Shown: one piece after another, positions 1 through 59,017 of the stretch | How positions within the stretch are numbered: the stretch's first letter is position 1 | Layout: the number at the start of each line of letters is the position of its first letter | Assembly (NCBI GenBank): GCA_951406725.2 | Contig: OX597817.1 | Coordinates: forward strand, 131,750,001-131,814,000 | Length of the DNA stretch: 64,000 nt | Direction of reading: 5' to 3' | DNA from: Octopus vulgaris | Taxonomy: Eukaryota | Program-made: the position numbers and the translations under genes | The notes under the pieces: model-generated | What the model saw: the letters and a program-made list of their open reading frames with translations, nothing else | Told to the model about the DNA's origin: nothing | The model's database searches: none

Positions 1-113
1 ACGATATGTCGAGCTACGGCCACTAGGAGTAAAGTTCAAAAAGTGTAACACGCTGAGATACTGGCATTCACATTTATAATATTATATTATATCATATTAT
101 TATATTATATTAA

Positions 114-330
114 GGCGACGAGCTGGCAGAATAGTTGACACGCCGGGCGAAATTTTTAGCGGTATTTCGTCTGCTGTTAGGTTTTAAGTTCGAATTCTGC
201 CGTGGTCGACTTTGCCTTTCATCCTTTCGGGGTCAATAAAATTAGTACCCGTCATGTACTGCCATCGATGTAATCGACTTAATCCTTTCCCCCAAAATCT
301 GAGGCGTTGGGCTTCCGGTAGAAAGTATTT
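114..330 (+). mobile_element. tRNA-derived SINE, Meta-domain type (family M)
   Basis: tRNA-like head GGCGACGAGCTGGCAGAAT...GTTCGAATTCTGCC, then GTCGACTTTGCCTTTCATCCTTTCGGGGTCAATAAAATTAGTACC, which resembles the Meta/Sauria-SINE central domain. More than 15 related copies occur in the window. Confidence 0.85.
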
Positions 331-419
331 ATTAAAGTTGTAAATGTGACACACTGACATTCGCATTTATTATATAAGATTTGTTTAATTTGGGGGTAAA
401 ATTTATTTCAATTAAAGTG

Positions 420-463
<44 letters not shown>

Positions 464-533
464 GTGTGTGTGTGTGTGCGCGCGTAGTGTGTGTGTGCAT
501 GTATTAAAGAACGTAAAAAAAAAATGATAGTGG

Positions 534-929
534 TTAGTATGTTGGCGACAGGAATTTCTGCCAAAGAGATATGGTTAAACAAAGTTGTAGATCGTCTCCC
601 TCTTTCTCTCACATAACACCCTCTCTTTCTCTCTCTTTTATTATTACTCCCACTGCCACCATCAACACTACTACTTTTGATAAAACATCATCAACTCTCT
701 CGAAATTTCTTTGTCACGCTCTCTCTCAGTTTCTTTTTCTTTTTTTTCTCTCTCTCTCTTTTTCTTTTTTTTCTCTCTCTCTGTGTCTTCGCCACCGCCC
801 TCACCTGTACCTACTATTACTCTGACCCTATCATGAGGACCAGTAGGAGTGTTACTGAAGAGTGAGAGAGGGAGTCTAAGTGTGACACACTGACACACAG
901 AAATTAGTTTGCGCATTTATTATATTAGA
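534..929 (-). mobile_element. Helitron-like non-autonomous element (decayed)
   Basis: Minus strand starts A|TCTAATATAATAAATGCG and ends with a TTGGC..GCCAA hairpin plus CTAA (CTAG-like). Related 5' ends also occur at about 17-80 and 345-379. Confidence 0.45.
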
Positions 930-1027
930 TATAGCTAAAATTATAATGATTGAAGGGCTAAGAGCTTCGTAATGAGCAACTTTGTAACATCTAGTGATTA
1001 GTAACAATAGTAATAGTAATAACAACA

Positions 1028-1111
<84 letters not shown>

Positions 1112-1420
1112 ATACATACATACATACATACATACATACATACATACATACATACATACATAATGCACTGCGAACGCAATGGGATGTGAGTGCGTGTGTA
1201 AGCGCTTTATGGACGTGAAACCCCAGATTAATCCCAGGGTAAAGCCCATATATAAATATCAAAATTTCTGAGACCTGTTATGTGACTATCCTCTACCAAT
1301 CAAATCCTCTTCAAAGCATATACTAATTTGAGTCAGAACTCTCAATAAAAACAGGGCAAACTTCAAACACTAATCAGAAGCCAGACAGCTGCAACATAAG
1401 TCACGTCTTTCTATCTGAAC

Positions 1421-1458
1421 CTTTCGAAAATCAGTGTGAACTGTGAAACCGGTTAAAG
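1421..1458 (+). ncRNA. degenerate hammerhead-like motif, possibly at a Penelope-like 3' end
   Basis: cttt-CGAAAAT-CAG tgtgaa CTG-T-GAAACCGGT-T-aaag: palindromic stem III (ACCGGT) and a decayed core, followed by AATAAA and (TA)n. Confidence 0.35.
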
Positions 1459-1557
1459 CTTCAAATATTTTAATAAAACAATATTTTACCTGTTCTCAGT
1501 GCATTTTTAACTTCTGTTTTTCCTATATTTCTACTCGTCTGGATTAAAATATATTTG

Positions 1558-1619
<62 letters not shown>

Positions 1620-2240
1620 ATGCATACGTATATATGTATATATATGTGTGTAAGTATATGCATGTGTATATATATATACATGCATTATATACCTATATGT
1701 GTATATATATATGCATATATTATATATATATATACATATATATATATATGCATATATTATAATATTATATATATATATATATATATGTATAGATATCAAT
1801 GTATACTTACACACATACATACATGTGTAAATATATGCACACATTCATACATACCTGCGCACTTTTGCACATGAATAATTGCTGGGGAAACAGGGTCTTC
1901 AAGAGAAGTTTTGCAATGTGGTCCGTTGTTGTTTCCTGTTCCCACCCGAGAAAGATGTCAGGCCTCTCCTCATACAGCTCAGAAAATCTCTGGCACTTGT
2001 CTAGCATCTTGAGTCGCACTTGCATCTCTAGTTTCCAGGTTAGTCACTCTCTTATAAGACTTGTCTGTACACAGCATGCCTTATATACATACATGCATAA
2101 GAACATGGTTATGTAGATACACACATACTTGCATACATACATGCATACATACATGCATAATACGTACATAAATGTACATATGCATGCCTACATGTATACA
2201 TACATATGAAGACCCATACATGCATGAGTAAATGCAAACC

Positions 2241-2910
2241 TCACTAGTTCGTCTGAAGGTGTCGGCGATGACCAAGTATATGACATATGAGAAAAAAGAT
2301 GGTGTGTCCGGTTGTGTCCAATCAGTGCGATGTGGGCTCAGAGGGCTCTGCTCTACAGGTCGGGCACTGCTGGTCTGTTGGGAATGAAAGCAAGAAGTTG
2401 TCTCTGGACTGGCGTAGTTCGAGTTTGCCCTGTGCTCTTGCAATCCTGTCCTGTTGGTATGAGGTGGCACCTCAGATGCTGCATACATTGCAGCATCTGC
2501 CAGACATTGTGGGTTTGCGCTTGTGTTTCTCAGGTGCCGGGGTTGATTTCAAAACTCTTTCGTAAGGTTTTAAGTGTATCTTTGAAGTTTTATCCGTTCT
2601 ATTTGCGTGGGCTTGCCTTCCGCCAGTTCCCTGTAAAACAGGGTCTTTGGGAGGCGTGTTGGAGGCAATTTGAGTGACCTGTCCACTTGATTTAAGCTCT
2701 CCTCAGCAATGTGTACACGCTTGGCAGATTACCTCGAGAGAGGATACCAAGCACTTCGTGTGGAAGCAGTCACGTATTTTGGCGTGACGTTCATAAACCG
2801 TCCATCTCTCACAGACGCACAGAAGTGGACGCAGTACAAATGCTTGGTACATCTATCTGGTGACCAGTATAATGCCTCTTCTTTCATACGCTGATTCACT
2901 GGTTCACAGG
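2241..2910 (-). pseudogene. RTE (BovB-like) LINE ORF 3' part, frameshifted
   Basis: Minus-strand translation pieces [26 protein letters not shown] and TRLPKTLFYRELAEGK...FKDTLKTLRKSFEINPGT*E, plus an RIALIGHNR-like C-terminal zinc-finger remnant. These are typical of RTE C-termini. Confidence 0.8.
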
Positions 2911-2912
2911 CA

Positions 2913-3136
2913 TACCTACATACGTACCTACTTACCTACCAACATACCAACCAACCTACCTACCTACCTACCTACCTACCAACCAACCTACCTACCTATC
3001 TACCTACCTACCTACCTACCTACCTACCTACCTACCAACCTACCTACCTACCAACCAACCTACCTACCTACCTACCTACCTACCTACCTACCTACCTACC
3101 TACCTACCTACCTACCTACCTACCTACCTACCTACA
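2913..3136 (+). repeat. (CCTA)n/(CCAA)n tetranucleotide microsatellite
   Basis: Direct reading of the sequence. Confidence 0.95.
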
Positions 3137-3255
3137 GATAAATGCCCATGCATACCTTTATGTATATATATATATAGACACATTCATACATACAAACATA
3201 CATACATACATACACATATATTGGTTTCAAATTTTGAATATATATGTATATTTCT

Positions 3256-4078
3256 GAAGGCGCCTTGGCTAGTGTCCTGATGATTTGCGACGGGTATCAA
3301 AGTGCCGACAACGTGGTTGCTGTCCAGCGCTCTGTGTGTAGTGTAACGGCTGTGAGAAGTGACATGAACAGCTGAAACTGAAAGAACGAAGCCATGTCCG
3401 ATGGAAAGTGAACCACAACACGTTCTGTATCGGAACTTCGGAATTCCTCTCCACATTTTTGAACATGGTCTTAGGGTCAGTTCAGACAACTATGTAAAGC
3501 TGCTGGAGAACGTAGTCACCTTTTGCCGGACAGGATTGCTGCTGGAAGACCACATCAGTGACAGTAGGTTTCACTTCTTTGCCATACCTCTGGGAAGTGT
3601 CAGAAGTTGTAGTCAGAGAATTTCTATGAGAATTTCAATAATTTTCCCAACCTCAATTCCTGGCCTATTTCCCCCGCCCCACACATAGTAATCCTATAGA
3701 TGTTTTGGAAGCAGCATGCGCATACAGGTGCTACTACTCGGGAGCTCCGCATACCAGAAGCCAGCAAATGTATGCGGTTATTAGGAGAGAATGCGCGCCG
3801 TTTCGGGGCCTACATCTCGAAAGCATAATTGCGCACCGGCCCCGCTCACCACATGAGGAGCCGCTTGCTATATCAACTGGTTATCAAATTATCTAGTATT
3901 ACCATGGATTACTATGTGTGGGTCACAATTGAGAGACACCAACCGCTCTGCCGGCAACACCAAGCTAGTTGACAAGGTATTCGAACATCTTCCCAGGAAC
4001 ACAGTGAGAAACGTAGGCGCCAGATACCGCAACCATCTTGAGGCCGTAGTTGAAGCTGAGTGTGACTACTTTGAGTAA
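3256..4078 (+). pseudogene. Tc1/mariner-superfamily (DD37D/maT-like) transposase remnant with internal insertion
   Basis: PLHIFEHGLRVSSDNYVKLLENVV, RIAAGRP, CHTSGKCQKL*SENFY, WP-SP, then an insertion at about 3678-3900, then PMDYYVWVTIER and RYRNHLEAVVEAECDYFE*. Confidence 0.8.
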
Positions 4079-4190
4079 GCTGTTATATCATAACCATAAT
4101 GGAGTTCATATTCTTTAATTTTGGGTTAGGATATTGTGATCTCTTTTCCTTTTAGGCGGACTGTTAAATTTACCCTTAACTCTCTCTCTC

Positions 4191-4277
<87 letters not shown>

Positions 4278-4281
<4 letters not shown>

Positions 4282-4704
4282 AAACAAGTCAAAAATAGAA
4301 AATGCTAAAATAATTTTATAGTGAACATTTCAGTACCGGTTTCGGTCATTTTGAGATCTTTTCAACTGTAACGATTAAATAATTAAATTTAGAAAAATTA
4401 GAAGAAAAGTTTTTTTAAAGGAATATTTCTATAGTAGTGTTCAGATATAAGTGGCATTCTGCCTTTCTCTGACTCCCTTGTTTGCACTTGTGTGTTCGAG
4501 GTCGTGGAGTCAGAGAAAGGCAGAATGCCACTTATATCTGAACACTACTATAGAAATATTCCTTTAAAAAAACTTTTCTTCTAATTTTTCTAAATTTAAT
4601 TATTTAATCGTTACAGTTAAAAAGGTCTCAAAATGACCGAAACCGGTACTGAAATGTTCACTATAAAATTATTTTAGCATTTTCTATTTTTGACTTGTTT
4701 TTTC
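4278..4704. repeat. 199-bp near-perfect inverted repeat (arms 4278-4476 and 4506-4704, 29-bp spacer) between (TA)n tracts; each arm carries a hammerhead-like motif
   Basis: The arms are reverse complements with only 2 mismatches seen. Motif cag-TTRAAAA-GRTC tcaaaat GACC-GAAACCGGT-A-ctg at 4614-4651 (+) and 4331-4368 (-). Confidence 0.9.
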
Positions 4705-4739
4705 ATATATATCAACTCGTGTGTTCCTTTTCACCCTTA

Positions 4740-4779
<40 letters not shown>

Positions 4780-4857
4780 GAGTGTGTGTGTATGTATGTA
4801 GATGTAAATATGTATATATAGATGCATACATATATATATATGTATATATATATAGAT

Positions 4858-4951
<94 letters not shown>

Positions 4952-5430
4952 TTATGTATAGATGCATCTAGACATAATCACATATACACATAATTACAAT
5001 GCAGCTACCATGGGATAAGAAAAAGTTACTCAGCTCCGTATTTGCTGACATTGTTATGAGTCACTCTAAGAATGGCAATTCCATTAGCATAAACACCATT
5101 TGCGTGTACAGTGTTGAATGAGTTGTCATATCCATTTTATTTTTAAGTCTCGACAAAAACACATAAATTACGAAATTATTTTGTCGAGCGTAGCTGTGTG
5201 CCATGGTTGTGTTGTTTGGAAGGTTGCGTTGCAGCCACGGGGTTTCCGGTTCAGTCTCACTGGGTGGCAACTTTGACAAGTTTTATTCTACTACAGCCCT
5301 GTTCGACCGATCACTTGAGAGTGAATTTGGTAAACAGATACTACGTGGAAACCACATTGTCTCTCTCTCTCTATCTGTCTGTCTCCCTCTTTCCCTCCAT
5401 CTCTCCCTCTCTTTCCCCCCCTCTCTCTCT

Positions 5431-5472
<42 letters not shown>

Positions 5473-5478
5473 TTACAT

Positions 5479-7062
5479 AGGTGCAGGCGTAGGTGTGTAG
5501 TAAGAAACTTGCTTTCCAACCGGTTCAGTCCCACAGTGTGGCTTCTACTATAGCCTCGGGCTAACCAAAGCCACGTGAGTAGATTTTGTAGACGGAAACT
5601 GGAAGAAGCCTGTCGTGTATATATATATATATATCACTCACCTCCCACATCATTAAAGTGTTTGAAAGAGTGTTAAGATCAAGGACAGCTGACTTCCTGG
5701 AGACCCACAAACTCCTAAATGCAAATCAGCATGGCTTTCGCTGTGGCAGGGACTGTCTAACACAGCTCTTACACCACATTGAAGATATACTCAAAGCCTT
5801 GGGAACAGGTTCTAACTCTGATGTCACATAGCTTGACTTCAGTAAAGCGTTCGACAGGGTTGACCATAATATCCCACTCTCAAAATTGGCAAATGTTGGA
5901 ATCCGTGGAGAACTTCTACACTGGATTAAGTATTTCCTGGCGAATAGAACACAACATGTTGTAGTCGATGGAGTCCACTCAAGCCCAGCAAAGGTCACCA
6001 GCGGTGTCCCCCTGTGGGCTGTCTTGGGCCCGCTACTCTTTATAATTTACATAAACGACCTTTCCAGTGTCGTACATTAATGCAAAGTGAAAATATTTGC
6101 TGATGACACTAAGCTCCAGCAAATCGTCAATGAAGAAGCAGACCGAACTCAACTCCAGTCTGATCTATATGCTGTGAGTCAATGGGCAGACAGAAACAAA
6201 ATGCAACTGAACGAGGGAAAATTTGAGCTGGTGCATTTTGGAAGAAATTCCTCACTAAAACAGCCATACTCTCTGCCTTCACAGCCTCTAACAATATCAG
6301 AGACCTGGGCGGAATTGTTGATGACGAGCTCAGTTGGAGTGCACATATCAACAATAAGGTCGATATAGCTCGTAGGATGAATTCCTGGATCTTAAGAACT
6401 TTCCGGTCCAGAGAACAAGGTGTCATCATACCACTTTTCTCCTCCTTTGTACGGCCACACCTCGAACACTGCTGCCCCCTGTGGTCTCCCCATACAATAC
6501 AAAACATCTCGAGGATTGAATCACCCCAGAGGGCACTCACTAAACGAATTAAAGGCATGGCTGCTCTCGATTATTGGGACCGCCTTAAAGCCTTGAAACT
6601 CTACTCCCTCCAGCGTCGCCGTGAGCGGTACATCATTTGTACGATGTGGAGGATATACCGCCAACTTTGCCCAAACGACCTGAACATTAGCTTCAAGGTT
6701 CATCCAAGCCTGAGACCACGGGCCATACGTCCCCTGCCCAATTCAAGATCACAGCATACATGTACACTGCAACATAATTTCTTTTCCTCAACAGGCCCTG
6801 CCCTATTTAACATTGTCCCGAAAGAGACCAAAGAGGAAAAGGATCCCATCAACTTTAAACGGAGTCTGGATAGAATCCTTCAAGGAATACCAGATAAGCC
6901 ACCCATAATTGGATACAACTCACCCAACAAAAACTCACTACTTGAATGAACCATAAACAAAACTTGACTTAAACAGGATTTAGATACTCCTATCAGGTGG
7001 TGCTATTAATTTAGACATCACATGGACCAATCTTTGGTCGAATCATATCTAAGTTTTATCTA

Positions 7063-7128
<66 letters not shown>

Positions 7129-7352
7129 TATATATTTACGTTATATGTGTGTGTCTGTGCTTGTCACACCCCACCTCTTTACAGCCGGTGTCGTTTTGTT
7201 TACATTAACATAACATAGTGGTTCGTCAAAAGACTCCGATAGAATAAATACCAGACTTAGAAATGTACACTGGGTTCGAAAACCCTCACCAGCGGGGTCC
7301 CATCATGGCCGTAATCCAATGACTATAACAAGTAAACGATATAGAAGATAAA
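5479..7352 (+). mobile_element. bipartite tRNA-SINE (family B), split by a CR1 insertion in its internal microsatellite
   Basis: Head AGGTGCAGGCGTAGGTGTGTAGTAAG...GAAGCCTGTCGT at 5479-5617 and tail ...CCGATAGAATAAATACCAG...CATGGCCGTAATCCAATGACT at about 7145-7352 flank the LINE. Confidence 0.7.
5635..7067 (+). pseudogene. 5'-truncated CR1-type non-LTR retrotransposon (RT domain, C-terminus, 3' UTR)
   Basis: QHGFRCGRDCLTQLL, LDFSKAFDRVDH, SGVPLWAVLGPLLFIIYINDL, KIFADDTKL, FVRPHLEHCCPLWSPH, LKLYSLQRRRERY, with stops and frameshifts. Ends in a short tandem (ATCTAAGTTT)2 tail. Confidence 0.92.
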
Positions 7353-7365
7353 GTGTAATTGAAAG

Positions 7366-7532
7366 TTTTTTCTTGAAGTCTCCTCCAGTATTTAACTGGT
7401 ATTTATTTCATAGACCCCGTATGAATGAAAGGCAAGGTGGACCTCGGTGAAATTTGAATACAGAACACAAAGTGGAATGATAGGCCGCTAAGCATTTTGT
7501 CCGGCATGATCAGGATTCTGCTATCTGTCCGC
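7366..7532 (-). mobile_element. family M SINE, old copy
   Basis: Reverse complement of the Meta-like domain (GAATGAAAGGCAAGGTGGACCTCGG) and of the head. Confidence 0.7.
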
Positions 7533-7622
7533 GCAATTTAATGGATAAGATATTCTTAAATGGTGAAGGACAGAAACAAACAACAGAGATCAATTGAAAA
7601 TACCGACAAACCTATAAACATT

Positions 7623-8020
7623 TCCTATTATAAATTTGAGTGGTGATTCTTGTCCGTTACGTTTTTATGTTCGCTAACTCCTCCTAGACCGTTGGGCAAG
7701 GGTAACGAATCTCAAACCAGCAACTCCCCTAATATCAGGGAATGTCCTAAGGGCGTCTATTTTTTTTAATGGCTGCTTCCCCTATTATTACTGTATTTTA
7801 AACTAGATACATGGCATTGGCGACCAAATCGGAGCAATGACAATGAATTTCATATCATGAACTCCTAGGGAATATCGTAAAAGGTTCAATATCTAAAGGG
7901 CCGCTTAAATGGGGCCCCACAGATCACCCCACTACTTTTACTGCACTTACCTCACTCCTAGGCTTATTGATTAAACTATGATCAATATCAGTCCTTAAAA
8001 CATTTGCAGAAATAAGTTTG
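7623..8020 (+). mobile_element. Helitron-like family H2, 5' part
   Basis: Reverse-complement homology with 51357-51758 over about 380 bp (e.g. GGCATTGGCGACCAAATCGG, TGATTAAACTATGATCA). Confidence 0.6.
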
Positions 8021-8469
8021 CGCATTCTAAATATCTTCACGTACCTTCAAATCAAGATAAAGAGTCATAACAGGTACGTTTGAAGTGTGGTAGTATGGAT
8101 AATTATATTTTGTAGTTCATGAAACTTATGTGTAGAATATGTATAATTATACAGAATATAATGATAATTAAGGGGTCAGAAGCCACTGTGCCTGTATGCT
8201 AGAAAAATACGCCAAATAGTCCAACAACGACAAGATTCGCTTCAATATACACAAGTATATACAGCCTCTTTTTGCATATACCTGTGTATATTGAAGCTAA
8301 TCTTGGTGGGGCGGTGGTGGGGAACTATTGAGAAAACGTCAGCATCCAGATACATTTTCATATTAAATCTGAATATAAGTATTGGCATTAAATTAATATT
8401 GATACGTGTGTATATATGAGTATATACGTGTGCGCAATACATACATACAATATACATATATACATATAC

Positions 8470-8965
<496 letters not shown>

Positions 8966-9295
8966 CAGTATTCGTCTATAAATCTGTAATTTGAATGAGT
9001 TGGACATGGAAACAATTGTAGGCAAATGCAAACTGACAATATGTATAAGTTTAACTTTGGTATGATGCCTCCCCGTTGGCCATGCAGGAAGGCGGCAGTC
9101 AGGCCAATATTCCTCGGTGATGGGAAGGCTAGTCCCTCTCAGGATTAGACATTTGCCGAGCCGATCAGTAAAGTGGAGCAACGTAAAATGAAGGGCTTTG
9201 CTCAAGAGCTCAACGCGCAGCCGTTCAGAGAATCGAAATCACGATCTTACTATCGTGTGCGCAACGCCCCTCACTGCTGAGAGTGAGCACCGTCT

Positions 9296-9326
<31 letters not shown>

Positions 9327-10473
9327 ATACATCGCGTACGCACACACACACAAATATATACCAAACATACACACATCCACATCCACATGCACACATATAT
9401 AAACTGACGTACACACACGCACACACCACGCACACATATATACATACATTCACACACGAAACCAAATACTTTAAGAAAAATATGGAAAGAGAAGTTTGGA
9501 GCAGATCAAGATAGAAGTATATAAATGATGTATATAACGTTCAACATCAATATTTGCATATTTAATTTGATTAGAATATTAATGAAATGGACCCCATTTG
9601 CATATAATTACGAACAAGTGCATACTAATACATAATTCATATTTTCGTATCCCTATGTATTACTATCGATAATATCATTGATATCATTTCAGCGCATGCC
9701 CATACAGTACTCTCCAAACCTTGACACATCTGTATACAATTATATACACAGTAACAGTGTCGAATATTGAATCTAAACAATTTTAATAGTAATTATATTC
9801 CATTCCGTAACATACTAACATTGAGAAAGGAATTTAATATAAGCTTGGCTAAATAAAAGCACGTTTATGCAGTTACGTTTGCTCGTCTTAAACCTATTCA
9901 TTATTGAATTTCTGGTACCAATTTTCTTGTATTTCTTATTATATTACTAATTCTATTTCTGCCAAGGGATTACCAGCATTGCGCCATTTATGCAACGAAC
10001 GGACAGATGCTAGCTTTGTTGTATTGGGATGTTAGTTTACATCGGTTCATCGTCTCATAGGAAAACTCAAATACAAAGGAAACGTTACAAAGTGTCTTAA
10101 CTCAACCAGCACGATTTTCCAATCTGATGGATCGCGTCAGAAAAGCTCCGAATTGGTACCATTTTTTAATTCGTTTCTTAGAAATTATATATTGGTTTAT
10201 TGATAATCTTGTCCAATTAATATATGTCACCCTTGTTGATTATAAATTAAATTAAGCGCAGGCGTGGATATGTACTAACAGATTTGCTTCTAAAGCACAC
10301 AGTTTTTGGTTCATTCCTACTCCGTGGTGCATTGAGAAAGTGACTTCTGCTAAAGCTCTGGGCCGATCGAAGCCTTCTGAATGGATTGGGCAAACATATT
10401 TACATGCTATTATTTATAAATTTATTTGCTTCGAAATGCATTATTCCCTCAAAAAGATGCAGCACGGAATTTT

Positions 10474-10517
10474 TTCAGTGAACAGGTCGCGGTCTCAAAT
10501 AGACGAAAGTATAGCAA
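10474..10517 (+). ncRNA. degenerate hammerhead-like motif with G3:C8 core (GTGAACA)
   Basis: tca-GTGAACA-G-GTC...GAC-GAAA. Stems I and III are eroded. The element ends at (TA)n near 10595. Confidence 0.3.
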
Positions 10518-10592
10518 ATTAAATTCAAATGTTGAAGCGAATCTAACGGTTTTTGTGTGTCTCTAAATGGCTTATAAACACCCTCCATGCTG

Positions 10593-10633
<41 letters not shown>

Positions 10634-10830
10634 TCTTTTACCTGTTTCAGTCATTTGACTGTGGTTATGCGGGAGCAACGCCTTTAGTCGAAGAAATTGA
10701 TCCTAGAACTTATTCATTGTTAGCCTAGTACTTATTCTATCGGTCTCTTTTGCCGAACCGCTAGTTTAGGGGACGTAAACACACCAACATCGGTTGTCAA
10801 GCGATGGTGAGAGAGGGGCAAAAACAGGCT
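10634..10830 (-). mobile_element. family B SINE tail
   Basis: GTTTCAGTCATTTGACTGTGG...GCCGAACCGCTAG...ACACCAACATCGGTTGTCAAGCGATGG. Confidence 0.85.
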
Positions 10831-11115
10831 CACAGACATATGCATATGTGTTTCTTTGTCTTTGCGTATGTCAACGGCTCACCGAGACCGATAAAATAAC
10901 TACCAGATCTGAAAATCCTTCGCGGAGGTACCTCATTAAAAGGTAGAAATATTTTCGACCCACAGCAACTAGCGTTTTAAATTTAGTTTATAATTACACG
11001 AAGCCGTAATTATAAGTGTTAACGCGATAATCCGTTTGTTCCATTGATTATCTCGTTACTGGCATATTTACCGTGGTTGCTGAACTCTTTTATTGTTGTA
11101 TTTGTTTAGCCACGT

Positions 11116-11430
11116 GGCTGCACATAACTTAGTAGTTAGAGCAGCGGACTCGCGGTCGGGGGATCGCGGGTTCGAATCTCAGACCGGGCGATGTGTGTAT
11201 TTATGAATGAAACCCCCAAGTTCCACGCGGTTACGGCAGAAGCTAATAGTGAACTTCTGCTGACTCTTTCGCCACAACTTTCTCTCTCTCACTCCTCCTG
11301 CATCTAGCAGTTTACCTGCGATGGACCGGCGTCCCGTCCAAGTGGGGAACCTCTACGCCAATGAAACCGGGAAACCGTCCCTTATGAGCCAGGTATGGCT
11401 CGAGAAGGGAAAGACAACAACAATAACAAC
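11116..11430 (+). mobile_element. tRNA-SINE, head A + tail Y (V-SINE-like tail, (ACA)n end)
   Basis: Same head as 8588. Different tail CCTGCGATGGACCGGCGTCCCGTCCA...GAAACCGGGAAACCG. Confidence 0.75.
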
Positions 11431-11544
11431 ATCATTTGTTTAGCCACACATTAACCCGGATCGATTATACATGGAATCGAAGGCACCACAGTAGTGATCA
11501 TTGGATCATTTAAGAGTTTTAACATTTTCCGAATCGCTAAGTTA

Positions 11545-11810
11545 CAAGAATGTAAATACACCAACACCGGTTGTCAAATGGTGATGGGTGACAAACACGG
11601 ACACACACACGCACACACACAGACACACAGACACACACGCACACACACAGATATATGACAAGCTTCTTTCAGTTTCTGTCTAGCAAATCCATTCACAATG
11701 CTTTGATCGGCCCGAGGCTTTAGTAGAAAACACTTGCGCGAGATGTCACGCGGTGGAACTGAACCCGGAACGATGTGGTTGGGAAGCAAATTTCTTACGA
11801 TACTGCCACG
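11545..11810 (-). mobile_element. family B SINE
   Basis: Tail part, internal (CA)n, then the head reverse complement CTTTCAGTTTCTGTCTAGCAAATCC...TGTGGTTGGGAAGCAA. Confidence 0.8.
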
Positions 11811-12464
11811 GCGAATAATAGTTATTGCATGATTGACATTTGGCTGTCAAACTTAAATTACCCACGCTCTGTCAGATTCGGTTCGCTGAATAAGTCACCA
11901 CCCTTAACGCTTGACATCGTTTCAGGTGTTTATCGACTCCTTGGATCACCAGGTAGACCCCACCATAGTGGTAGTGTTAAGAGGGTTTTTTTCCTTTTAA
12001 ATGTCTGACAATTTTCGGATTTAATGTAATAACGTGACATCTCGTTAACACTTGTGTTAGGCCTAAACTGTAAGTAGATCCATATTAAAAGGTGACCTGA
12101 ACTGTACCACAGATTTCTGCTTTGTTGAACATCACAATCAGTGATGCAGTGCAAATCAACTAAAAGGTTACGTAGCTGTAATCTCTCATAAATGCTATAA
12201 TTAACAAATTGAATCGCTATGGTCACATACACGCAATTACACCAACACACACACATATACACATATATTCACACATGTACACATACCTACAGATACGGGT
12301 TTATCCGGTCAATGACGAAGCTTTTATGGAGTCAAACGCTTTCCTCGAAATAGCAGCCAAATCTTGCAGACATAACCCATCTGGACTATTTTCTTTTTGT
12401 TTTACTAGTTAGTACAAGGACAAGACCGATGAAACTATGTTTTTTTATTATTATGCTATTAATA

Positions 12465-12526
<62 letters not shown>

Positions 12527-12779
12527 TAATTAATTTATTTATTTTGTTGGGGTGGGGTCCCAAAATGTAGAAGACAGACAGGCAGTTATTCCGGTTCGAG
12601 AAGAACGATGCGGGATGACGTGAACCTTGGCAGGGACGGAGAGTTATGCCTAATTCAGAAACCGTAGCATGTCGTTGTACATAGTCTAGTACTATAACGA
12701 AAAGCCTGACCTGAGCAGTTTACTGTTGACCAAAGAAAGCGTAAATCGAAGAGAAAATCAACAGTATAGAAGAAACAGA

Positions 12780-13615
12780 CGACAGTAGACAAACCACCAC
12801 AGTATGGAAAGCCAATATGGAAACTTGTCTGGTTGTAAATCTTAGCCATCTCGAAACTAAAGACAAGCAACCAAAAAGATCAACTAGCGGGCTGGGAAAA
12901 CCTCTTTGAAAAATTGATCAACCACAAGACTCCCGCAGACAATTTCGTTGTGACATTGATCTCACCGCCGCTCACTAATATTCTAACTGGTGGAATTATC
13001 TTTGGTGACGTATTAACTGCTTCTAACGAGCTCAAGATCGGGAAATCGTGTGATGTAGATGGTGTGTTTCCAGAGGTTCTTCCGAATCTTGCGTTAGTTC
13101 TTTTACTTTTTCTTACTCTAAACTTTTCTCAGATCACAGCTCAAGCGCCATCGGAATTCAAGTTGAGTCGCATGATACCTTTTCCGGAAAAAGTGGAGAT
13201 ACGGCTCGTAACGTGACATTAACCTGATATCATGTTATGCCAAACACATCAACAGTACCAAGCTCAAACGCAATCCGAGACCCTAACGAAATATTAATCA
13301 CATCAAGGCAAAACGGCTTTCACAAAGGTTGCTCCAAACGCTTTCTCCACTCATTGAATACATCTCAGTAAAGAAAGATATTTTTTATGTAGCATCGTCT
13401 TTGTGGATTCCCCCAAAGCTTTTGGCTCTGAGCCAATGTTTCAGATTCTCTCTGCTTATGGATAATGAAGTTAAGATGCAAAAGTTATCCACCCTCTCTA
13501 TTCAGATTGCAATTGTTTAGTATGCACCCCTGACAGAGTCAGCGACACATATGCTGTCAGCGCAGGAGTTCTCCAAGGTCAGAACTTTGCGGCCTTCCTT
13601 TCCATGATAGACTTG
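12780..13615 (+). pseudogene. old RTE-like LINE reverse transcriptase remnant
   Basis: LKIGKSCDVDGVFPEVL (K.GKAAGPDG-like), RQNGFHKGCS, FVDSPKAF, AGVLQG...FLS, in shifting frames. Confidence 0.65.
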
Positions 13616-13825
13616 AACTATATGCTATATATATATATATATAATAACAATTTAATAAATAAAACATATGCGTACATACATACATATATATGTACATACC
13701 TACAACTATATGTATATATGCATGCATATATGGGCACAGGATACCCCCCCCCCAAAAAAAAAACGTAGAACGCAACGATAAACGAAAACATGATCGAACG
13801 CCACGCATCAACTTCCAAGTAAGTT

Positions 13826-13863
<38 letters not shown>

Positions 13864-13906
13864 GTCTATTTATATCTATATATATCTATATATATATCTA
13901 TCTATC

Positions 13907-14046
<140 letters not shown>

Positions 14047-14781
14047 GAAATAGAAAGATGAATAATCTTGTTGCAGATTAATCGAAAGTTTAACCGATAC
14101 CTTGGTAGCAAAAATCACAGCAGAAGACAGCACGGTTGGAGGTACAACCATATGGTGTTGCAACCGTGCGTTGGTGCGGATAATTGAATTTTAATATTAT
14201 TAGTGAATTGAAGAAATGGAGTTGAACGAAGATTGAACAGAAATCGTTTTATTGCATTCTACACGTGTTTCGAAAGGCACAATTTACCAAATTCCGATTG
14301 AATAAGGAGACCATATTGTGTCTTTCTCTTCAGGAAGAAATAGGAAATCCGTCGGAAAAAACAAAAACAGAACAGAGGCGGAGCAAAACAAATCGAACGA
14401 GGCTCCTAAGAGCCCATGGCCAAACTGTTTATCAAAGTATGTTGAAAACGGGTGGTGGGTGCGTTGAAGATTTTAACGGGTCAGGCAGCTGTCATTCCGG
14501 TGGGTGAGAGCACGGGGTGCTTAGATGTTCTTTGTGACCGAGACTAAAGTTCTGACTATTTAAAGAATATTAGGTGTATTATATGGGGCGAGACAAAATC
14601 TACTTAGAAACATATATATATATACGCGGTCACATTTTGAATCATATATATATATATATATATATATTGGTATTACGTGACTGTTTGGTTTCGAAGCTTT
14701 TGCACAACCACAAAGTTTAAGGCAGAATCCCATCCGCGTCACCCTGGCTTTGTATGTGAATTTTGTAGACGGAAACACATG

Positions 14782-14822
<41 letters not shown>

Positions 14823-15573
14823 GCACGCACGCACACACACTCACGCGCGTGCACACACACACACATACACATGATCACATGCACACAAACACACAAAAAC
14901 ACAGGTGTGTGTGTGTATGTGCTCGAGTGTATACGTTTGTATGTTATTGTGTGTTTGCATTCCGTGTCTGCAAATTATAGTGTTGTGTAAATTTAAATTT
15001 ATTTTCCTCATTAATTCACCTCTGCCAGAACACAGGCTGTTGCCGAATTTAGCGTTGTGCTTTATTAAAGAAATCTATCACCAAAGGAATATCAGGCATT
15101 GAAATCTAGCGAAAGAAACAAGAAAAAAATGCCTAAATTACCCACTTGTAAATGAATGAATACTTAGACACAGAAAGAGAAAGAGAAAGAGAGAGAGAGA
15201 CAGAGAGAGAGACAGACAGAGGGGCAGAGAGAAAAAGGGAAAGAGAGGGGTGACTGAGAGAGGAGAAGAGGGTGAAGAAAAAAAGAAAAAAGAGAAAAAA
15301 CACAATTTACTTGAGCAAATGTTAACCGCGCCTAATAGCCTAGAGCAGTTGCCATTTTGGCACGCTTAATTTGGTTAAGAAATAATGAAATGCGTTCAAC
15401 TAACAATATTGGTCTGCTGCTTAGACCAAGGTAATAACTTTAGCCAACACAGTGCTTGCCGGTTAAATTAAAACAGCTAGGTAACTTAATTTGCCGGTCT
15501 AAACTTTATTTCTAAATCTTTTCGGTCAAACACATTTAGAAATATATACTTTCTTAATCAACATACCTAAACA

Positions 15574-15653
<80 letters not shown>

Positions 15654-15908
15654 ATATATATGTGATGTGTGCATGTGTGTGTGTGTGTGTGTTTTCAAAA
15701 AACTTAAAATATAATTATTAAATGTACACCGTATTTCCTGATGTTAGCCACGGTGGTAAAAGGATACTTCCAGACATATATTTAGCTTTGATTAAGACAG
15801 TCGTCGTGGTGTTGTTTAATGTGTTTGCAGCTGATATTTCACACAAGCTTTGTTGACAATCTTCTCAAAGCGTCAGTACGTGTTAAATAAACAACAGCAG
15901 TGCCTCTG

Positions 15909-15976
<68 letters not shown>

Positions 15977-16198
15977 CTTGGAAATGGATGTATGACGTTC
16001 AATTAAATAATAATATAAATTATATATATATATATAATTAACAGTTATCACCAAGCTAATATGGCAGTCCATAAATATAAGACTAAAGCTGCCGTTGATT
16101 AGCTCCAAGAGGCCATCGCCTCTAGCTAGCTATATGACACACGAACCTGTGTCTATTATAACCTTCAAACAGGGGAGGCCAGCCGCTTTCCCTTTCTG

Positions 16199-16291
16199 GT
16201 CAAGGCCCACAGGAAGCGTTGATGCTTCCTAGGGCTAAATAGCGGTAGTGTAATTCCCTCTATGGGGGACTGTCACTGACAGTATACAACT

Positions 16292-16292
<1 letters not shown>
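16199..16292 (+). repeat. copy of a structured repeat also found at 58499-58604 and 58867-58970
   Basis: CAGGAAGCGTTGATGCTTCCTAGGGCTAAATAGCGGTAGTGTAATTCCC...GACTGTCA.TGACAGTATACAAC matches 58867-58965. Confidence 0.8.
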
Positions 16293-16387
<95 letters not shown>

Positions 16388-16490
16388 TATGTATGTATGT
16401 ATATACGGTCGCGACAACACTTCTCTATGTAGTATAGCTATACACGTATATATACACAGACATATGTACATTCCACCATCGCGAATCTTG

Positions 16491-16524
<34 letters not shown>

Positions 16525-16879
16525 TTTACTCTCTCCCTTCCTCTCTCCGAACTTACACACACATACGCACACACACACACACTTAAGCGAATGCACACGC
16601 TGCAACTTATTCGTGTGCGCTCATGTAAACCGAACCAAAATCGACTTGTGTCAATACCTGACTGTAGTCTCTAGCGCACGTACACACACACACACACACA
16701 CGCCCGCGCACAAACACACACACCACACACACATACTCAAACTCATTCACAATTATACAAATACTTGTACGTGTCTAGAACAACACATTTTAAAACGAGC
16801 ACACCCACATACACAATTATATCACACTATCCAAATATATGTAAGTGTTTTTATGTGTGAATATATACGTGCATATTTA

Positions 16880-16941
<62 letters not shown>

Positions 16942-17004
16942 GTATACATATATATGTATATATATTTATATATATATATATATACATAAATATATGTATA
17001 TATA

Positions 17005-17341
17005 TACTTTTATACTTTTACTTTGTTTTAGTCATTTGACTGCGGCCATACTGGTGCATCGACTTTAGGCGAGTAATTCGACCCCAGGCCTTATTCTTTG
17101 GAAGCCTAGTACATATTCTATCGGCCAATTTTGCCGAACTGCTAGTTTACCAGCATCGGTTGTCAAGCGATATTGGTAGGGACAAACACACACACAAACA
17201 TATACACACACATATATATATATACACGGCAGGCTTGTTTCAGTTTCCGTCTACGGAATCCGCTAACAAGGCTTTGGTCGGCCCAAGGTTATACTAGCAG
17301 ACTGTTGCCCAAGGTGCCATGCAGTAGGACTGAACCCAGAA

Positions 17342-17343
<2 letters not shown>
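17005..17343 (-). mobile_element. family B SINE (tail plus truncated head)
   Basis: Same motifs as the copy at 29931-30329. Confidence 0.8.
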
Positions 17344-17388
<45 letters not shown>

Positions 17389-17429
17389 TATATATATATA
17401 CATATACAACCATATATATATATATATAT

Positions 17430-17505
<76 letters not shown>

Positions 17506-17920
17506 CACACACATATATATATACATATACAACCATATATATATATATATGCATTTTAACATTGCTGCACAAGATGAGATCCATAGTCACCTGCAGAATA
17601 TAATAAACCTCCTACCTTCCTTCTGTCTTCCTCTTCCTCATCCCCATCTCCACCCACCCCGTAGCCTTCAACTTCGTATTTCTTATCTTTATTCTCTTTA
17701 GCACCCTCTCCTGTTTCACCCTTAGTCTCTCTCCCTCGTTCTCCCTCTCTCTCTCCGTATCACATAATACTACATACTCTACCCTTCGTCTTTTCCATCT
17801 CGCACCTCTTCCTCTTGTTCCTCTTACTCCTCCACGTTTCTGTTATACAACCTAATGTAGCACACCATACTTCTTTCTTCCTTACCACCTACCTTTCTTT
17901 TTCTTCTTTCTTTTGTTTTC

Positions 17921-18020
17921 CTTCTTCTTCTTCTTCTTCTTCTTCTTCTTCTTCTTCTTCTTCTTCTTCTTCTTCTTTATTTTCTTCTTTATTTTCTTCT
18001 TCCTCTTCTTCTTCTTCTTC
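17921..18020 (+). repeat. (CTT)n microsatellite in a pyrimidine-rich tract (about 17610-18250)
   Basis: Direct reading. Confidence 0.9.
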
Positions 18021-18479
18021 TTGTCATCGTCCTTCTTTCTCCTCTCCACATTTTTCTACTTGTCGTCTTCCCTCCTCCCCTCATCCTCCCACTCCTCCTC
18101 TCCCTCCACTGCTGCCTCAACGTTCTTCCCCACCTCCACTTTCTACTCCGCCCCCTTTCTCTTATTCTTACACATATTCCTTCATTCTCTTCCCTGCTTT
18201 TCTACTTTTGTCCCTTCAACTCAAATGTCAACCTCTTCAAGCCACCCCTTAACAGCCCTTATTGCACCATAAGCTTTTTCTAGTTTGACTGCTCTTTCCC
18301 GATACTCTTTCGCCAGTGCTCCTTGTAATAATACTCAGTTGCTCTCCTCTCCAATTCCATATATCTTATTTTTTAATTAAGGAAGTCCTTATCTACCTCA
18401 CATAATCATTGTATTTCAGTCGAGAAACCTTCAAGATACGATCGGTTTTTCCAATTATTTGCATATCATTGACTCTCAG

Positions 18480-18850
18480 ACATAGAATCTCAGAATATCA
18501 GGCGCAGGTATTCGCTTTGCGATCACATTCTTTCCTGTTCGGTCACACTTCGAAGCAGCTTAGGCAAGCATCTTCTACAGGATGTTCAAAACGTCTCTCC
18601 GCAGCACGTATTTAATGGGTTCTCGAGCGATTCTTGTACACTGGTCCCTTACTTGCTCCCCATGAAAAAAGTCTGGCGGTGTTAAATGAGGTGATCTTGG
18701 TGGTCAAAATCCTTTCGAAATAATCTGTTCACCGAAAAACTCTTGAAGTAGCGCCATGGTGAGGCGCAGGATGAAAAATAAATTCGCTGCTGAGAGGCAT
18801 TTTGAAACAGCCTGTACTGTAACCCGGGGACGCCCCAATGCCTTGTGAGG
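18480..18850 (-). pseudogene. Tc1/mariner transposase C-terminal remnant
   Basis: Minus strand reads FFGEQIISKGF*PPRSPHLTPPDFF...KGPVYKNRSRT, matching the WPPRSPDLTPxDFFLWG motif. Confidence 0.75.
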
Positions 18851-19086
18851 GAATATGGTAGAGAGAAACTATGTGTAGGCTAGTTGGACACACACTTACA
18901 CACACCATTCTTAAGGATTCTGAAGGATCCGGGTTACCGACAGAAGTTGGCGGAACTGTAAGTCGCATCAAACCGAATCAAACTGCTTTCAATAATAGTA
19001 TATGTAACACATTCGAAAAGTGTGATCGACTCTTTCTTTCGTTCGTCCACTCCTCCGCATATATGTCTGTATATATACATGTATAT

Positions 19087-19161
<75 letters not shown>

Positions 19162-19723
19162 ATATATATATGTATACATATGAGTGTGTGTGTGCGTGTG
19201 TGTGCGTGCCTGTGTATAACGCGCACATCCATGTGCGAATATGATTTTGCATATTTCCAAAGATAATATGAATTCGTTAAAGAAACTATTCTCATTTGGA
19301 GTCGTAATTAAAATGCAAATTATTGATTCTATTTTCTGTTTTTCTATTTTCATTTGCCTTTTAGCCAAAAAAAAAAGAAAAAAATTAAAAAAAGAAATAA
19401 CTGAAAAGAAGAGAGAAAGAAATTCATTTTAGTGGCTCACTTAAATTCTATTAATTATGTTAAATATTTGAATATATATTTGATTTTTGAGTTTAATTTT
19501 TTCCGATTAGTTTCAGTCCACGTAGCAAATTTCAAAACACACACACACACATACACACACACACACATACACACACATACACACATAAACACACACACTC
19601 ACACACAAACACATACACACAGTTGTATATATATATATCAGCGTGTTCGTGTCTGCGTGTACATATGTATACATACATATATATACATACATACACCAAA
19701 CACACATGCACATACACACACAC

Positions 19724-19784
<61 letters not shown>

Positions 19785-20414
19785 TACATCAGCGTTTCCT
19801 ACTTCTCAGTAGCGATTTTCTAAAATTGCTATTAATGAAAATTTTGATTAAAATAATGTTTTAATTTACATAATTTTTCCTCGGTGGTTCAACAAAATAG
19901 TTAAAACACAACAAATGGTTTCTGTTAAATCCAATTTGTTGTGTTAGAACTGTTGAAGCGAATCTATGGCTTCACTGATTTCTAACAGAACTCAGCTTCG
20001 ATGCAGGGTTTTTCCAATTTAACATTACGTTCGTTAAATGTAGCATAGCTTGCTCCACCTCGATCTGCCTGTCCACAACTTGTTACCCTGGAGAAAGGTG
20101 ATTGATAGGAACAGCTGGGTCATAAAGTGGAGCACTTTAATACAGACAGGACAATAAGCATATTTCGTTATCGTGGACAAGCAGAAAATGTTTCAACACA
20201 TTGTCATTCATCCATCCATTTTCTGCACTGACTATTCCTAGTTGGGTCATCAGGTGGATTCTCCATGGCATTCTATCAGAAGTACTTATGATTAGACTTC
20301 TCTGCTGGATCCCTAAGCGTTTCCAACAGAAAATATGGACATTATCTGCTCATCTTATTCTTGGTCTGTTCCTAAGCTGTTGGCTTGGCAAGGAAAATCC
20401 ATCTTTTGATACAT

Positions 20415-24954: not shown

Positions 24955-25526
24955 GGATGTATGTATTGCCTCTATAGATGCCAAATAACATAGCTACAAG
25001 TTTTTTCCCCCACCCCTCCTCCGTTCCTTTTTCTCTCTTTCCCTTTCTTTCGTTCCCCCTCCTTGCTCAGTATATGAGAATTGCTACATATATGAATTTA
25101 GCTTGCGTGCGAGACGGTTTGCGTATATATATATGTACACATGCTTTTATGTGTATAATTTAGATTCATATTCATACGTCTGTATGTGTATGTATGGCGT
25201 TTACGCGCATCCTTTTGTGTATGTTGATATATATATGTGGATTTTAATATAAATATGTATTGCAGTATTTATAACAGGTTTAATTTCTATGCATTAATTT
25301 GTACTGTCTTCATTAACGGCAACAGGTTTTTTCCTCGGTATTTTCCTCGGATTTTATAATTTTTATAAGTTTTTATATATATATACATATATTTTTGACC
25401 TTTTTGTTTATCGCTCGAAGATTGACCGTTTTTTCTAAAGGGCCAATCAAACAAGTCCATTTCTTTTTAAAGGTGTAGCGTTTGTAAGAGTATAGATTGA
25501 ATTAATATATATGTTCCATTCTAGCA

Positions 25527-25573
25527 AAAACTGTCTGATGAACGGCAACGAGAAACTCAGAGTAACAGATTTT
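25527..25573 (+). ncRNA. minimal type-I hammerhead-like motif
   Basis: aaaactgt-CTGATGA-a CG gcaa CG a-GAAA-CTC a GAG-TA-acag: canonical core, weak stem II, near-palindromic stem III, GUA cleavage triplet. Followed by AATAAA and (TA)n. Confidence 0.6.
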
Positions 25574-25600
25574 GTTGAATTTTCTGCTGCTTAAAATAAA

Positions 25601-32592: not shown

Positions 32593-33052
32593 AGTGTGTT
32601 TGCGTATATAGATGTGTGCGTGTGTGCGTGCATGCGAGTACTGCGTATATAGACGTATCTTACACAGTGTCTTTACACATTTTCCTGTTTTTTGCTCTTA
32701 GCCCTGTTTTTTCTTGTGCTTGTGCGTATATAGACATGTGTATGAACCTTTATGGTGCGCGTGCGTGTGTGTGGGCTTTTATGTATATACCTATACATTT
32801 GCTGAAGGATGAGAGTGAGGATGTGTACATTTTCAAGCGAGGGTGGATGAATGTATACTTTTAGGTGGATGCACGTATGTATTCTGGCGCGCATGTGTAG
32901 GTATGAACAGGCGCGCTTACGCGAATACTATGAACAATTTACCCCCTTACTTAGCGGTCATTCGAATAGCTCTTTTGTCTTAATAACGGTCAATCACAAA
33001 ATAATTTCCCTTTGTATAACAGTAATTTTTCATAGCATTTTTCCGATGGCCG

Positions 33053-33113
33053 GATAACTGAAGAGATGCCAGCGTGGATTTCCATCTCGGCATCCGAAAC
33101 TCGGAGTTTTATC
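33053..33113 (+). ncRNA. type-I hammerhead-like motif
   Basis: gataa-CTGAAGA-GATGCC(18 nt)GGCATC-c-GAAA-CTC g GAG-TT-ttatc: canonical core, 5-bp stem I, 6-bp stem II, GUU triplet. The element runs to (TA)n at about 33218. Confidence 0.75.
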
Positions 33114-33249
33114 ATAGCTACCGAATAATTGTGACATATGTCCTTTACAGATAAATTCCTCTATTTACATAATATCGAGGTCTCTTTCTATCTTTTGTTG
33201 CCTTACCATTTTTATTAATATATATATATATATATAATATATGTATATA

Positions 33250-53447: not shown

Positions 53448-53448
<1 letters not shown>

Positions 53449-58318: not shown

Positions 58319-59017
58319 GGCGCAGGAGAGGCTGTGTGGTAAGTAGCTTGCTTACCAACCCCATGGTTCTGGGTTCAGTCCCACTGCGTGGCAACTTGGG
58401 TAGATATCTTAACTAGAGCTTCGAGCCCACCAAACTCTTGTGAGTGGATTTGGTAGACGGAAACTAAAGAAGCCCTTCCTATATATATATATAGAGAGAG
58501 AGTGGTTGTATACTGTCCAACATAACGTGACAGTCTCGTAAGGGAATTACACCACCGCTGTTTAGCCCTAAGAAGCATCAACGCTTCCTGTTGGCTTTGA
58601 CACATTTCCCGTGTCCTTATATTTGCGAAGGGGAGGCAAGCACCCCCATCAGCTAGGATTCACACCTGAGGACATGCATGTTTCTGGGACTTAACCAGTC
58701 ATCAGCCCAGGATAGTGAGGTCTGCTTGTTGAGATGCCTGTCTAGCCTTCGCAAATATATATATTTACAGTGAAATCTATTCACTGGTCACCGTAATTAG
58801 AAATTTTAAATTTTTAAATGTCTCAAAGAGACAGAGCGGTGGTGGAGCGATAGAGTGGTTGTATACTGTGTCAAAGCCGACAGGAAGCGTCGATGGTTCC
58901 TAGCGCTAAACAGCGGTGAGTAATTCCCTTACGGGACTGTCACGTTATGTTGACAGTATACAACCACTCTATCGCTCCACCACCGCTCATGTCTCTTTGA
59001 AACATTTAGAAATTTAA

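What the first reader, a model, noticed from the sequence alone, without database searches (positions are those of the whole stretch)
4278..4704. 199-bp fold-back whose hammerhead has a U3:A8 core, with one different lesion per arm
Seen: the two mismatches I found between the arms both fall in the motif. The left arm has core TTGAAAA with stem II GATC/GACC. The right arm has core TTAAAAA with a perfect GGTC/GACC stem II. The reconstructed ancestor is cag-UUGAAAA-GGUC..GACC-GAAACCGGU-A-cug. Known: C3 and G8 form a Watson-Crick tertiary pair, and U3:A8 is a tolerated compensatory variant. PLE insertions often carry an inverted partial pLTR. Inference: a recent PLE-type insertion with a non-canonical but probably functional ribozyme. 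Independent damage to both copies could be chance or selection against cleavage of a host transcript.
Basis: partly seen in the sequence, partly recalled or inferred. Interest (0 to 1): 0.72.

Follow-up and report, generated by a model that had tools for sequence, protein, structure and literature searches.

The report
Head-to-head Penelope retrotransposon stub with hammerheads
This hairpin is two short end pieces of an abundant Penelope-type jumping gene lying head to head; their predicted self-cutting RNA motif has an already published variant core, and the single mutation in each copy is likely chance decay, so the finding is ordinary.

Summary
The family is a young Penelope-like retrotransposon (RT, cysteine linker, C-terminal GIY-YIG). 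The insertion is a 228-nt and a 199-nt 5'-truncated copy, head to head, with a 38-nt tail on one end, in a TA microsatellite; 58 of 100 listed copies lie in such inverted pairs. U3-A8 cores, opposite-strand pairs and the tail are all published for PLEs. Selection against cutting a host RNA is not supported: substitutions are not enriched in the motif (8/3572 versus 42/13723 sites outside, p=0.49), about one such doubly hit locus is expected per genome by chance, and in a read-through RNA the motif is predicted to be locked in the 199-bp duplex. Activity was not testable. Side result: 5' ends of short copies pile up 200-235 nt from the 3' end (19 of 30), likely the RNA start; none of 30 tail-bearing copies ends at the predicted cut site. 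The scan noted similar stubs before, in this genome and others.

The parts
4233..4277 (.). TA microsatellite on the left: the target site; no target-site duplication can be read
   Evidence: sequence; family copies start in (TA)n or after the tail
4278..4505 (-).
   Evidence: 228-nt match at 99.6% to long copies; contigs of four runs continue past 4505 into element body
4331..4368 (-). Minimal type I hammerhead of the left copy, U3:A8 core intact; G10.2-to-A mismatch in stem II at 4357
   Evidence: stem II hairpin energy -0.6 versus -4.0 kcal/mol for the family form
4506..4704 (+). Right copy: last 199 nt of the PLE, inverted against the left copy, joined at 4505/4506
4614..4651 (+). Minimal type I hammerhead of the right copy; G5-to-A core change at 4619; predicted cut site between 4648 and 4649
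   Evidence: G5A is used as the inactive control in PMC4075628 (passages)
4705..4742 (+). 38-nt PLE tail, on one end only; in tandem units it continues into the start of the next unit
   Evidence: near the outer end of 35 of 94 copies
4743..4776 (.). TA microsatellite on the right
   Evidence: sequence

Best explanation
The fold-back is one short insertion of a young Penelope-like retrotransposon, made of two 5'-truncated 3' ends set head to head in a TA microsatellite, and its two hammerhead mutations are likely chance decay after insertion. Shown: family membership, copy geometry, tail on one end, U3:A8 as the family core, both arms of the same subfamily haplotype, no excess of changes in the motif. 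Inferred mechanism: the element's GIY-YIG nuclease nicks AT-rich DNA on both strands and its RT starts at two internal sites about 38 nt apart on the element RNA (as shown in vitro for the Anolis element, PMC11167929), giving one copy with and one without the tail. Both cDNAs here likely stopped at or near the 5' end of the RNA, about 230 nt upstream, which is where short copies of this family mostly end. Each arm then took one C-to-T change (G-to-A in ribozyme sense). Neither arm is predicted to cut now: the right has G5A, the left a weakened stem II, a minimal hammerhead needs a second sense copy, and a read-through RNA would bury the motif in a 199-bp duplex. Whether the family form cuts at all is untested (about 0.55, probably only as a dimer or with protein help).
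For: Family: 1201 candidates, 40 scored, nearly all 99%; 848 copies with exact motif flanks. Long copies carry RVT_1 (E 3.5e-8) and C-terminal GIY-YIG (E 3.8e-4 in the 784-aa frame, below the curated cut-off; E 5.8e-5 and above it in the 377-aa piece) with DKG, YLDD and a C-x4-C-x2-C linker; about 49 of 114 scored places have an unbroken 784-785-aa frame (hand count). A 4.4-kb tandem unit plus inverted piece is seen in L031. 29 inverted pairs of the window's geometry among the first 100 places, 6 of them under 340 nt apart, against 1 of opposite geometry. Substitutions in 94 copies chosen without regard to the motif: 8 of 3572 sites inside, 42 of 13723 outside after removing 11 subfamily sites, p=0.49; G/C sites only 7 of 1598 versus 9 of 3466, p=0.29. 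Expected 1.2 changes in 427 nt, P(2 or more)=0.35; expected 2.5 pairs per genome with both motifs changed, 0.8 with nothing else changed. Enforcing the hammerhead fold in a read-through RNA costs about 62 kcal/mol on either strand. 5' ends: 19 of 30 short copies end at 200-235 nt.
Against: Both changes do fall in a motif that is 19% of the arm (3.6-9.6% for one locus), and none of 26 other pairs with both arms fetched had two different motif lesions (hand count). The G/C-only rate is 1.7-fold higher inside the motif, though not significantly, and the sample has only 8 events, so a modest excess is not excluded. The fixed-length pattern misses indels in the motif, which exist (9 of 20 loci picked for variants near the core). 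No independent record spans the insertion. The two-start, run-off mechanism is inferred from another clade's in vitro data and from end positions, not shown.
Confidence: 0.9

Rival explanations
1. Both lesions were selected because an active ribozyme would cut a host transcript running through this locus.
For: Both changes are in the motif and on different arms; the right one is the standard inactivating G5A (PMC4075628); the left one removes most of the stem II energy.
Against: No family-wide excess in the motif; 763 of 848 copies keep it intact; one transcript exposes only one arm in sense, so one lesion is irrelevant unless both strands are transcribed; the sense arm is always downstream of its complement and predicted to be paired; no host exon was recognised among 46 frames of 120 aa or more (4 window frames scanned, one RT hit). 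G5A and G10.1A recur in other copies next to the A run, as a mutation-prone site would.
Confidence: 0.03
2. The palindrome is an assembly or read fold-back artefact.
For: No contig of the four runs laid spans the insertion.
Against: A fold-back read would mirror the flank too; here the flanks differ and both occur in low-depth contigs of other runs (3800-4175 and 4968-5250). The arms are unequal (228 and 199 nt), differ at two sites, and only one has the tail, as in other insertions of the family and in published PLEs (PMC3846280, PMC8557442).
Confidence: 0.02
3. The two lesions came in with the insertion, as RT errors or from two different parent RNAs, rather than arising later.
For: G5A is found in 11 of 20 loci fetched for carrying variants there, on several haplotype backgrounds, and on both arms of L137. 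A few pairs have arms of different haplotype (L138, L139; L038).
Against: The window's arms are otherwise identical and of one haplotype; no other 100% match to either arm among 40 scored candidates each; arms share subfamily letters in at least 23 of 26 pairs (hand count). RT error and later mutation cannot be told apart here; either way the lesions are chance.
Confidence: 0.2
4. The unit is a self-standing MITE-like DNA element with 199-bp terminal inverted repeats.
For: Long near-perfect inverted arms in a TA target.
Against: Junction points and arm lengths differ at every locus examined, the sequence runs straight on into an RT-GIY-YIG element, and no second copy with the same junction was seen.
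Confidence: 0.02

Closest known systems
C-terminal-endonuclease Penelope-like elements with a cysteine linker (Neptune/Nematis type; PMC8557442, PMC3846280)
   Same: RT with DKG motif, CX2-5CxxC linker, C-terminal GIY-YIG, partial tandems, inverted 5'-truncated copy, 30-40-nt tail on one end, TA microsatellite target, hammerhead near the 3' end
   Different: A different family (best database relatives 61% identical over the C-terminal half, unnamed). Neptune versus Nematis was not settled: no tree with named references was built.
U3-A8 minimal hammerheads of Cercyon PLEs in Schistosoma mansoni (Cervera and de la Pena 2014, PMC4209133)
   Same: U3-A8 in place of C3-G8 (about 1,300 hits there); minimal type I layout; motif pairs on opposite strands 100-700 bp apart
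   Different: Here stem II is 4 bp with no extra base before it, and stem III is a short palindrome; the Schistosoma motifs have 7-8 bp in helix II. Here the motif is very uniform across copies (90% identical).
Poseidon element of Anolis carolinensis (Frangieh et al. 2024, PMC11167929)
   Same: Tail between two RT start points; AT-rich target; hammerhead in the pLTR
   Different: Other clade; C3-G8 core; its hammerhead overlaps the start codon, whereas here it lies 54-91 nt before the tail-less end. Its mechanism is shown in vitro, here only inferred.

Membership tests
Penelope-like element, EN+ | RT followed by a C-terminal GIY-YIG endonuclease in copies continuous with this sequence | tested here: met
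   145 relatives with RVT_1, many with GIY-YIG. The window's own copy holds no coding sequence.
Penelope-like element, EN+ | Partial tandem (pLTR) and inverted 5'-truncated copy | tested here: met
   L031; 29 inverted pairs and 2 tandems among 100 places
Penelope-like element, EN+ | 30-40-nt tail on one end of the insertion | tested here: met
   38 nt at 4705-4742 only
Neptune/Nematis type | CX2-5CxxC linker between RT and EN | tested here: met
   C-x4-C-x2-C at residue 650 of the 784-aa frame; criterion from PMC8557442 passages
Neptune clade proper | RT phylogeny groups with named Neptune elements | not tested
   no named reference sequences were returned
Minimal type I hammerhead (family form) | Core Y3 U4 G5 A6 N7 R8 A9 ... 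G12 A13 A14 with 3:8 pair, A15.1-U16.1, H17, stems I and II | tested here: met
   Rfam alignment weak (E 0.16)
Minimal type I hammerhead (family form) | Palindromic stem III allowing a dimer | tested here: met
   cofolding two copies pairs them through the stem III palindrome, extended over stem I strands, so the active dimer itself was not the predicted optimum
Minimal type I hammerhead (family form) | Covariation or constraint supporting the structure | tested here: inconclusive
   older versus young subfamily: 0 of 13 core sites differ, 3 motif differences are two loop deletions and one G-C to G-U, 15 of 163 sites differ outside; shared alleles 0 of 38 versus 11 of 165, p=0.22; no two-sided change seen
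Minimal type I hammerhead (family form) | Self-cleavage | not testable with these tools
   needs an in vitro assay
Hammerhead, right arm of this locus | G5 present | tested here: not met
   A at 4619
Hammerhead, left arm of this locus | Continuous stem II | tested here: not met
   mismatch at 4357
MITE | Fixed-length unit repeated with the same ends and centre | tested here: not met
   junctions differ between loci

The most novel reading that the evidence does not exclude
The short head-to-head stubs of this family are pairs of run-off cDNAs copied from the 5' pLTR of an uncut RNA: their ends pile up at the transcription start about 230 nt upstream and never at the hammerhead cut site, and G5A-dead copies have themselves jumped. 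The genome would then be an in vivo record that the PLE hammerhead is not used to make the template's 5' end.
Probability: 0.4. Interest if true: 0.45.

Novelty: new member of a known kind. Interest (0 to 1): 0.15.

Why it matters
As given, little: it is one decayed stub among hundreds, with a published core variant. The family is of modest use because it is young, has many unbroken RT-EN frames and a uniform U3:A8 motif, so it is a ready substrate for asking what PLE hammerheads do, which the papers read here call unresolved (PMC8557442, PMC11167929). The pile-up of 5' ends gives a testable position for the RNA start.

Tried and rejected
Rfam over 1-20000 gave only microsatellite and hairpin matches below gathering score in the rows shown (150 of 210); the narrow scan gave a weak hammerhead hit. 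The repeat finder was swamped by microsatellites but ranked this inverted repeat first. A second control segment (519 copies, a partly different set) showed changes in 21 of the 100 listed rows outside one subfamily site (hand count) against 85 of 848 for the motif (p=0.002); no genome-wide exact count was obtained for it and the sets are not like for like, so I rest. Sequencing runs: no RNA holder listed; contigs of four runs did not bridge the insertion; no RNA coverage of the neighbourhood was obtained, so transcription through the locus is open. Different parent copies for the two arms: no sign at this locus. A paper on PLE hammerheads cleaving as dimers (Lunse et al., recalled) was not held and is not used. 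Searches by sequence and place in earlier findings returned nothing. No C3:G8 form of this family was seen in 94 young or 30 older copies, so the step from C3:G8 to U3:A8 is not caught here.

Full report
Observation. The arms 4278-4476 and 4506-4704 are reverse complements at 197 of 199 positions; the mismatches are 4357/4625 and 4363/4619. Each arm holds a 38-nt type I hammerhead layout read towards the outside: three-pair stem I strands, core, four-pair stem II with a 7-nt loop, GAA, a short palindromic stem III and a GUA cut triplet. On the left (minus strand, 4368-4331) the core is UUGAAAA and stem II has a G10.2-to-A mismatch; on the right (plus strand, 4614-4651) stem II is perfect and G5 is A. 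Rfam aligns the left arm to Hammerhead_HH9 only weakly (15.6 bits, E 0.16). The numbering of positions follows the usual hammerhead convention and is recalled.

The family. The window lies in a 2.8-Gb genome. Thirty copies of an older subfamily, 82-85% identical to the young one, also have U3 (29 of 30) and A8 (30 of 30); these were the best 30 of 46 matches to a query that itself carries G5A. Between old and young majority letters, 0 of 13 core sites differ, the three motif differences are two loop deletions and one G-C to G-U, and 15 of 163 sites differ outside. This fits constraint but is not significant.

The element. [quoted passage not shown] About 49 of 114 scored places have this frame unbroken (hand count). 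Database relatives are 660-790-aa RT plus GIY-YIG proteins, best 61% identical, none of the 120 listed named to clade. By the linker it is of Neptune/Nematis type (PMC8557442, passages; PMC3846280, passages); no tree was built. L031 shows the textbook arrangement: a 4.4-kb unit, a truncated copy in tandem, and an inverted truncated copy with the tail.

This insertion. The 29 nt between the arms are element body, so the left copy is 228 nt and the right 199 nt plus a 38-nt tail (4705-4742), set in (TA)n. Among the first 100 places listed, 29 pairs have the window's head-to-head geometry within 7 kb, six of them 267-337 nt apart (the window's are 284 apart), against one of opposite geometry and two tandems. 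Inverted 5'-truncated copies and a 30-40-bp tail on one end are described for PLEs (PMC8557442; PMC3846280). A read fold-back is unlikely: it would mirror the flank, whereas the flanks differ and both are present in other runs' contigs; but no record spans the insertion.

The two lesions. I took the first 93 of the 100 listed places plus 3 further copies in the same stretches, dropped 7 duplicate hits from overlapping loci and 2 copies lacking exact flanks, and scored 94 copies. Substitutions: 8 of 3572 sites in the motif, 42 of 13723 outside once 11 subfamily sites are removed (p=0.49); G/C sites only 7 of 1598 versus 9 of 3466 (p=0.29). At this rate 427 nt carry 1.2 changes on average, and with about 246 inverted pairs (extrapolated from 58 of 100) 2.5 are expected to have both motifs changed, 0.8 with nothing else changed. 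Against this reading: none of 26 pairs with both arms fetched showed two different motif lesions (one shared the same change, two had one; hand count), the sample has few events, and fixed-length patterns miss indels. Both arms share one haplotype and neither has a second 100% match among 40 scored candidates, so the lesions look private. G5A recurs in 11 of 20 loci fetched from the 41 matches, which were enriched for variants there; it was 0 of 94 in the unbiased set.

Selection against cutting a host RNA. On either strand the antisense arm is transcribed first and the sense hammerhead second; forcing the hammerhead fold costs about 62 kcal/mol and the stem II pair probability is near zero. 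Only one arm is in sense per transcript, and minimal hammerheads need a second sense copy: a Schistosoma monomer showed no cleavage and dimers low cleavage (PMC4209133, parts 1-2 of 4 read); the Anolis motif cut only with protein, and its mutants did not impair insertion in vitro (PMC11167929, parts 1-2 of 4 read). No host exon was recognised in the window, which does not exclude a large intron. The idea has no support here.

What is known. PMC4209133 reports U3-A8 in Cercyon PLE hammerheads (about 1,300 hits) and motif pairs on opposite strands 100-700 bp apart. PMC3088659 (section 8 read) reports natural U3-A8 covariation and earlier proof of activity in vitro. PMC4075628 (passages) uses G5A as the inactive control. 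Figures and supplements of these papers were not seen and may list this family. Searches listed no paper that describes this family or a pile-up of PLE 5' ends; Repbase and Dfam could not be searched.

Side result. Prompted by earlier scan notes, I mapped 5' ends. Of 96 copies reaching at least 103 nt, 30 end before 330 nt: 9 at 103-199, 19 at 200-235, 2 at 236-329 (rates 0.0010, 0.0065 and 0.0003 per nt; binomial p=7e-9, with the window chosen after seeing the data and some arms paired). Among 30 tail-bearing copies fetched by the tail and the last 53 nt alone (30 of 41 matches), 10 end at 197-232 and none near the predicted cut at 56. The window's arms (228 and 199) sit at this pile-up. The simplest reading is run-off at the RNA's 5' end from priming in the 5' pLTR of uncut RNA; an RT pause site is the rival.

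Verdict. Real, correctly reconstructed, and ordinary: a new member of a known kind. Interest 0.15.

Noticed in passing
window 25520-25580 (+), 33050-33115 (+), 58660-58720 (-): Three further hammerhead-like motifs with a canonical C3:G8 core and paired stem I strands, unrelated in sequence to this family; likely ends of other PLE or retrozyme families.
   Followed up: partly
L031:3756-5066 (-) and L148:1380-1620: The element has an upstream frame of about 410 aa from its first Met that overlaps the 784-aa RT-EN frame by about 60 nt, with a U-UUU-UUA heptamer in the overlap; the RT-EN frame's first Met (residue 68) lies after a conserved-looking N-terminal stretch, so a -1 frameshift is likely. 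Frameshifted ORF1 is noted for PLEs in the Fig. 1 legend of PMC8557442.
   Followed up: partly
L127-L131, L137: G5A copies share haplotypes across chromosomes (L127/L128; L129/L130/L131/L137, with both arms of L137 affected), a hint that ribozyme-dead copies have retrotransposed; a mutation-prone G beside an A run is the rival.
   Followed up: partly
family-wide; L037-L126, L151-L180: 5' ends of short copies pile up 200-235 nt from the 3' end with a sharp outer edge near 232.
   Followed up: yes
L138, L139, L038: A few inverted pairs have arms of different subfamily haplotype, which could mean two template RNAs or gene conversion.
   Followed up: no
window 6227-6949 (+), 53448-54399 (+): Fragments that look like non-LTR retrotransposon RT regions; RVT_1 hit for 53791-54396 (E 3.9e-8), none for 6227-6946.
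   Followed up: partly
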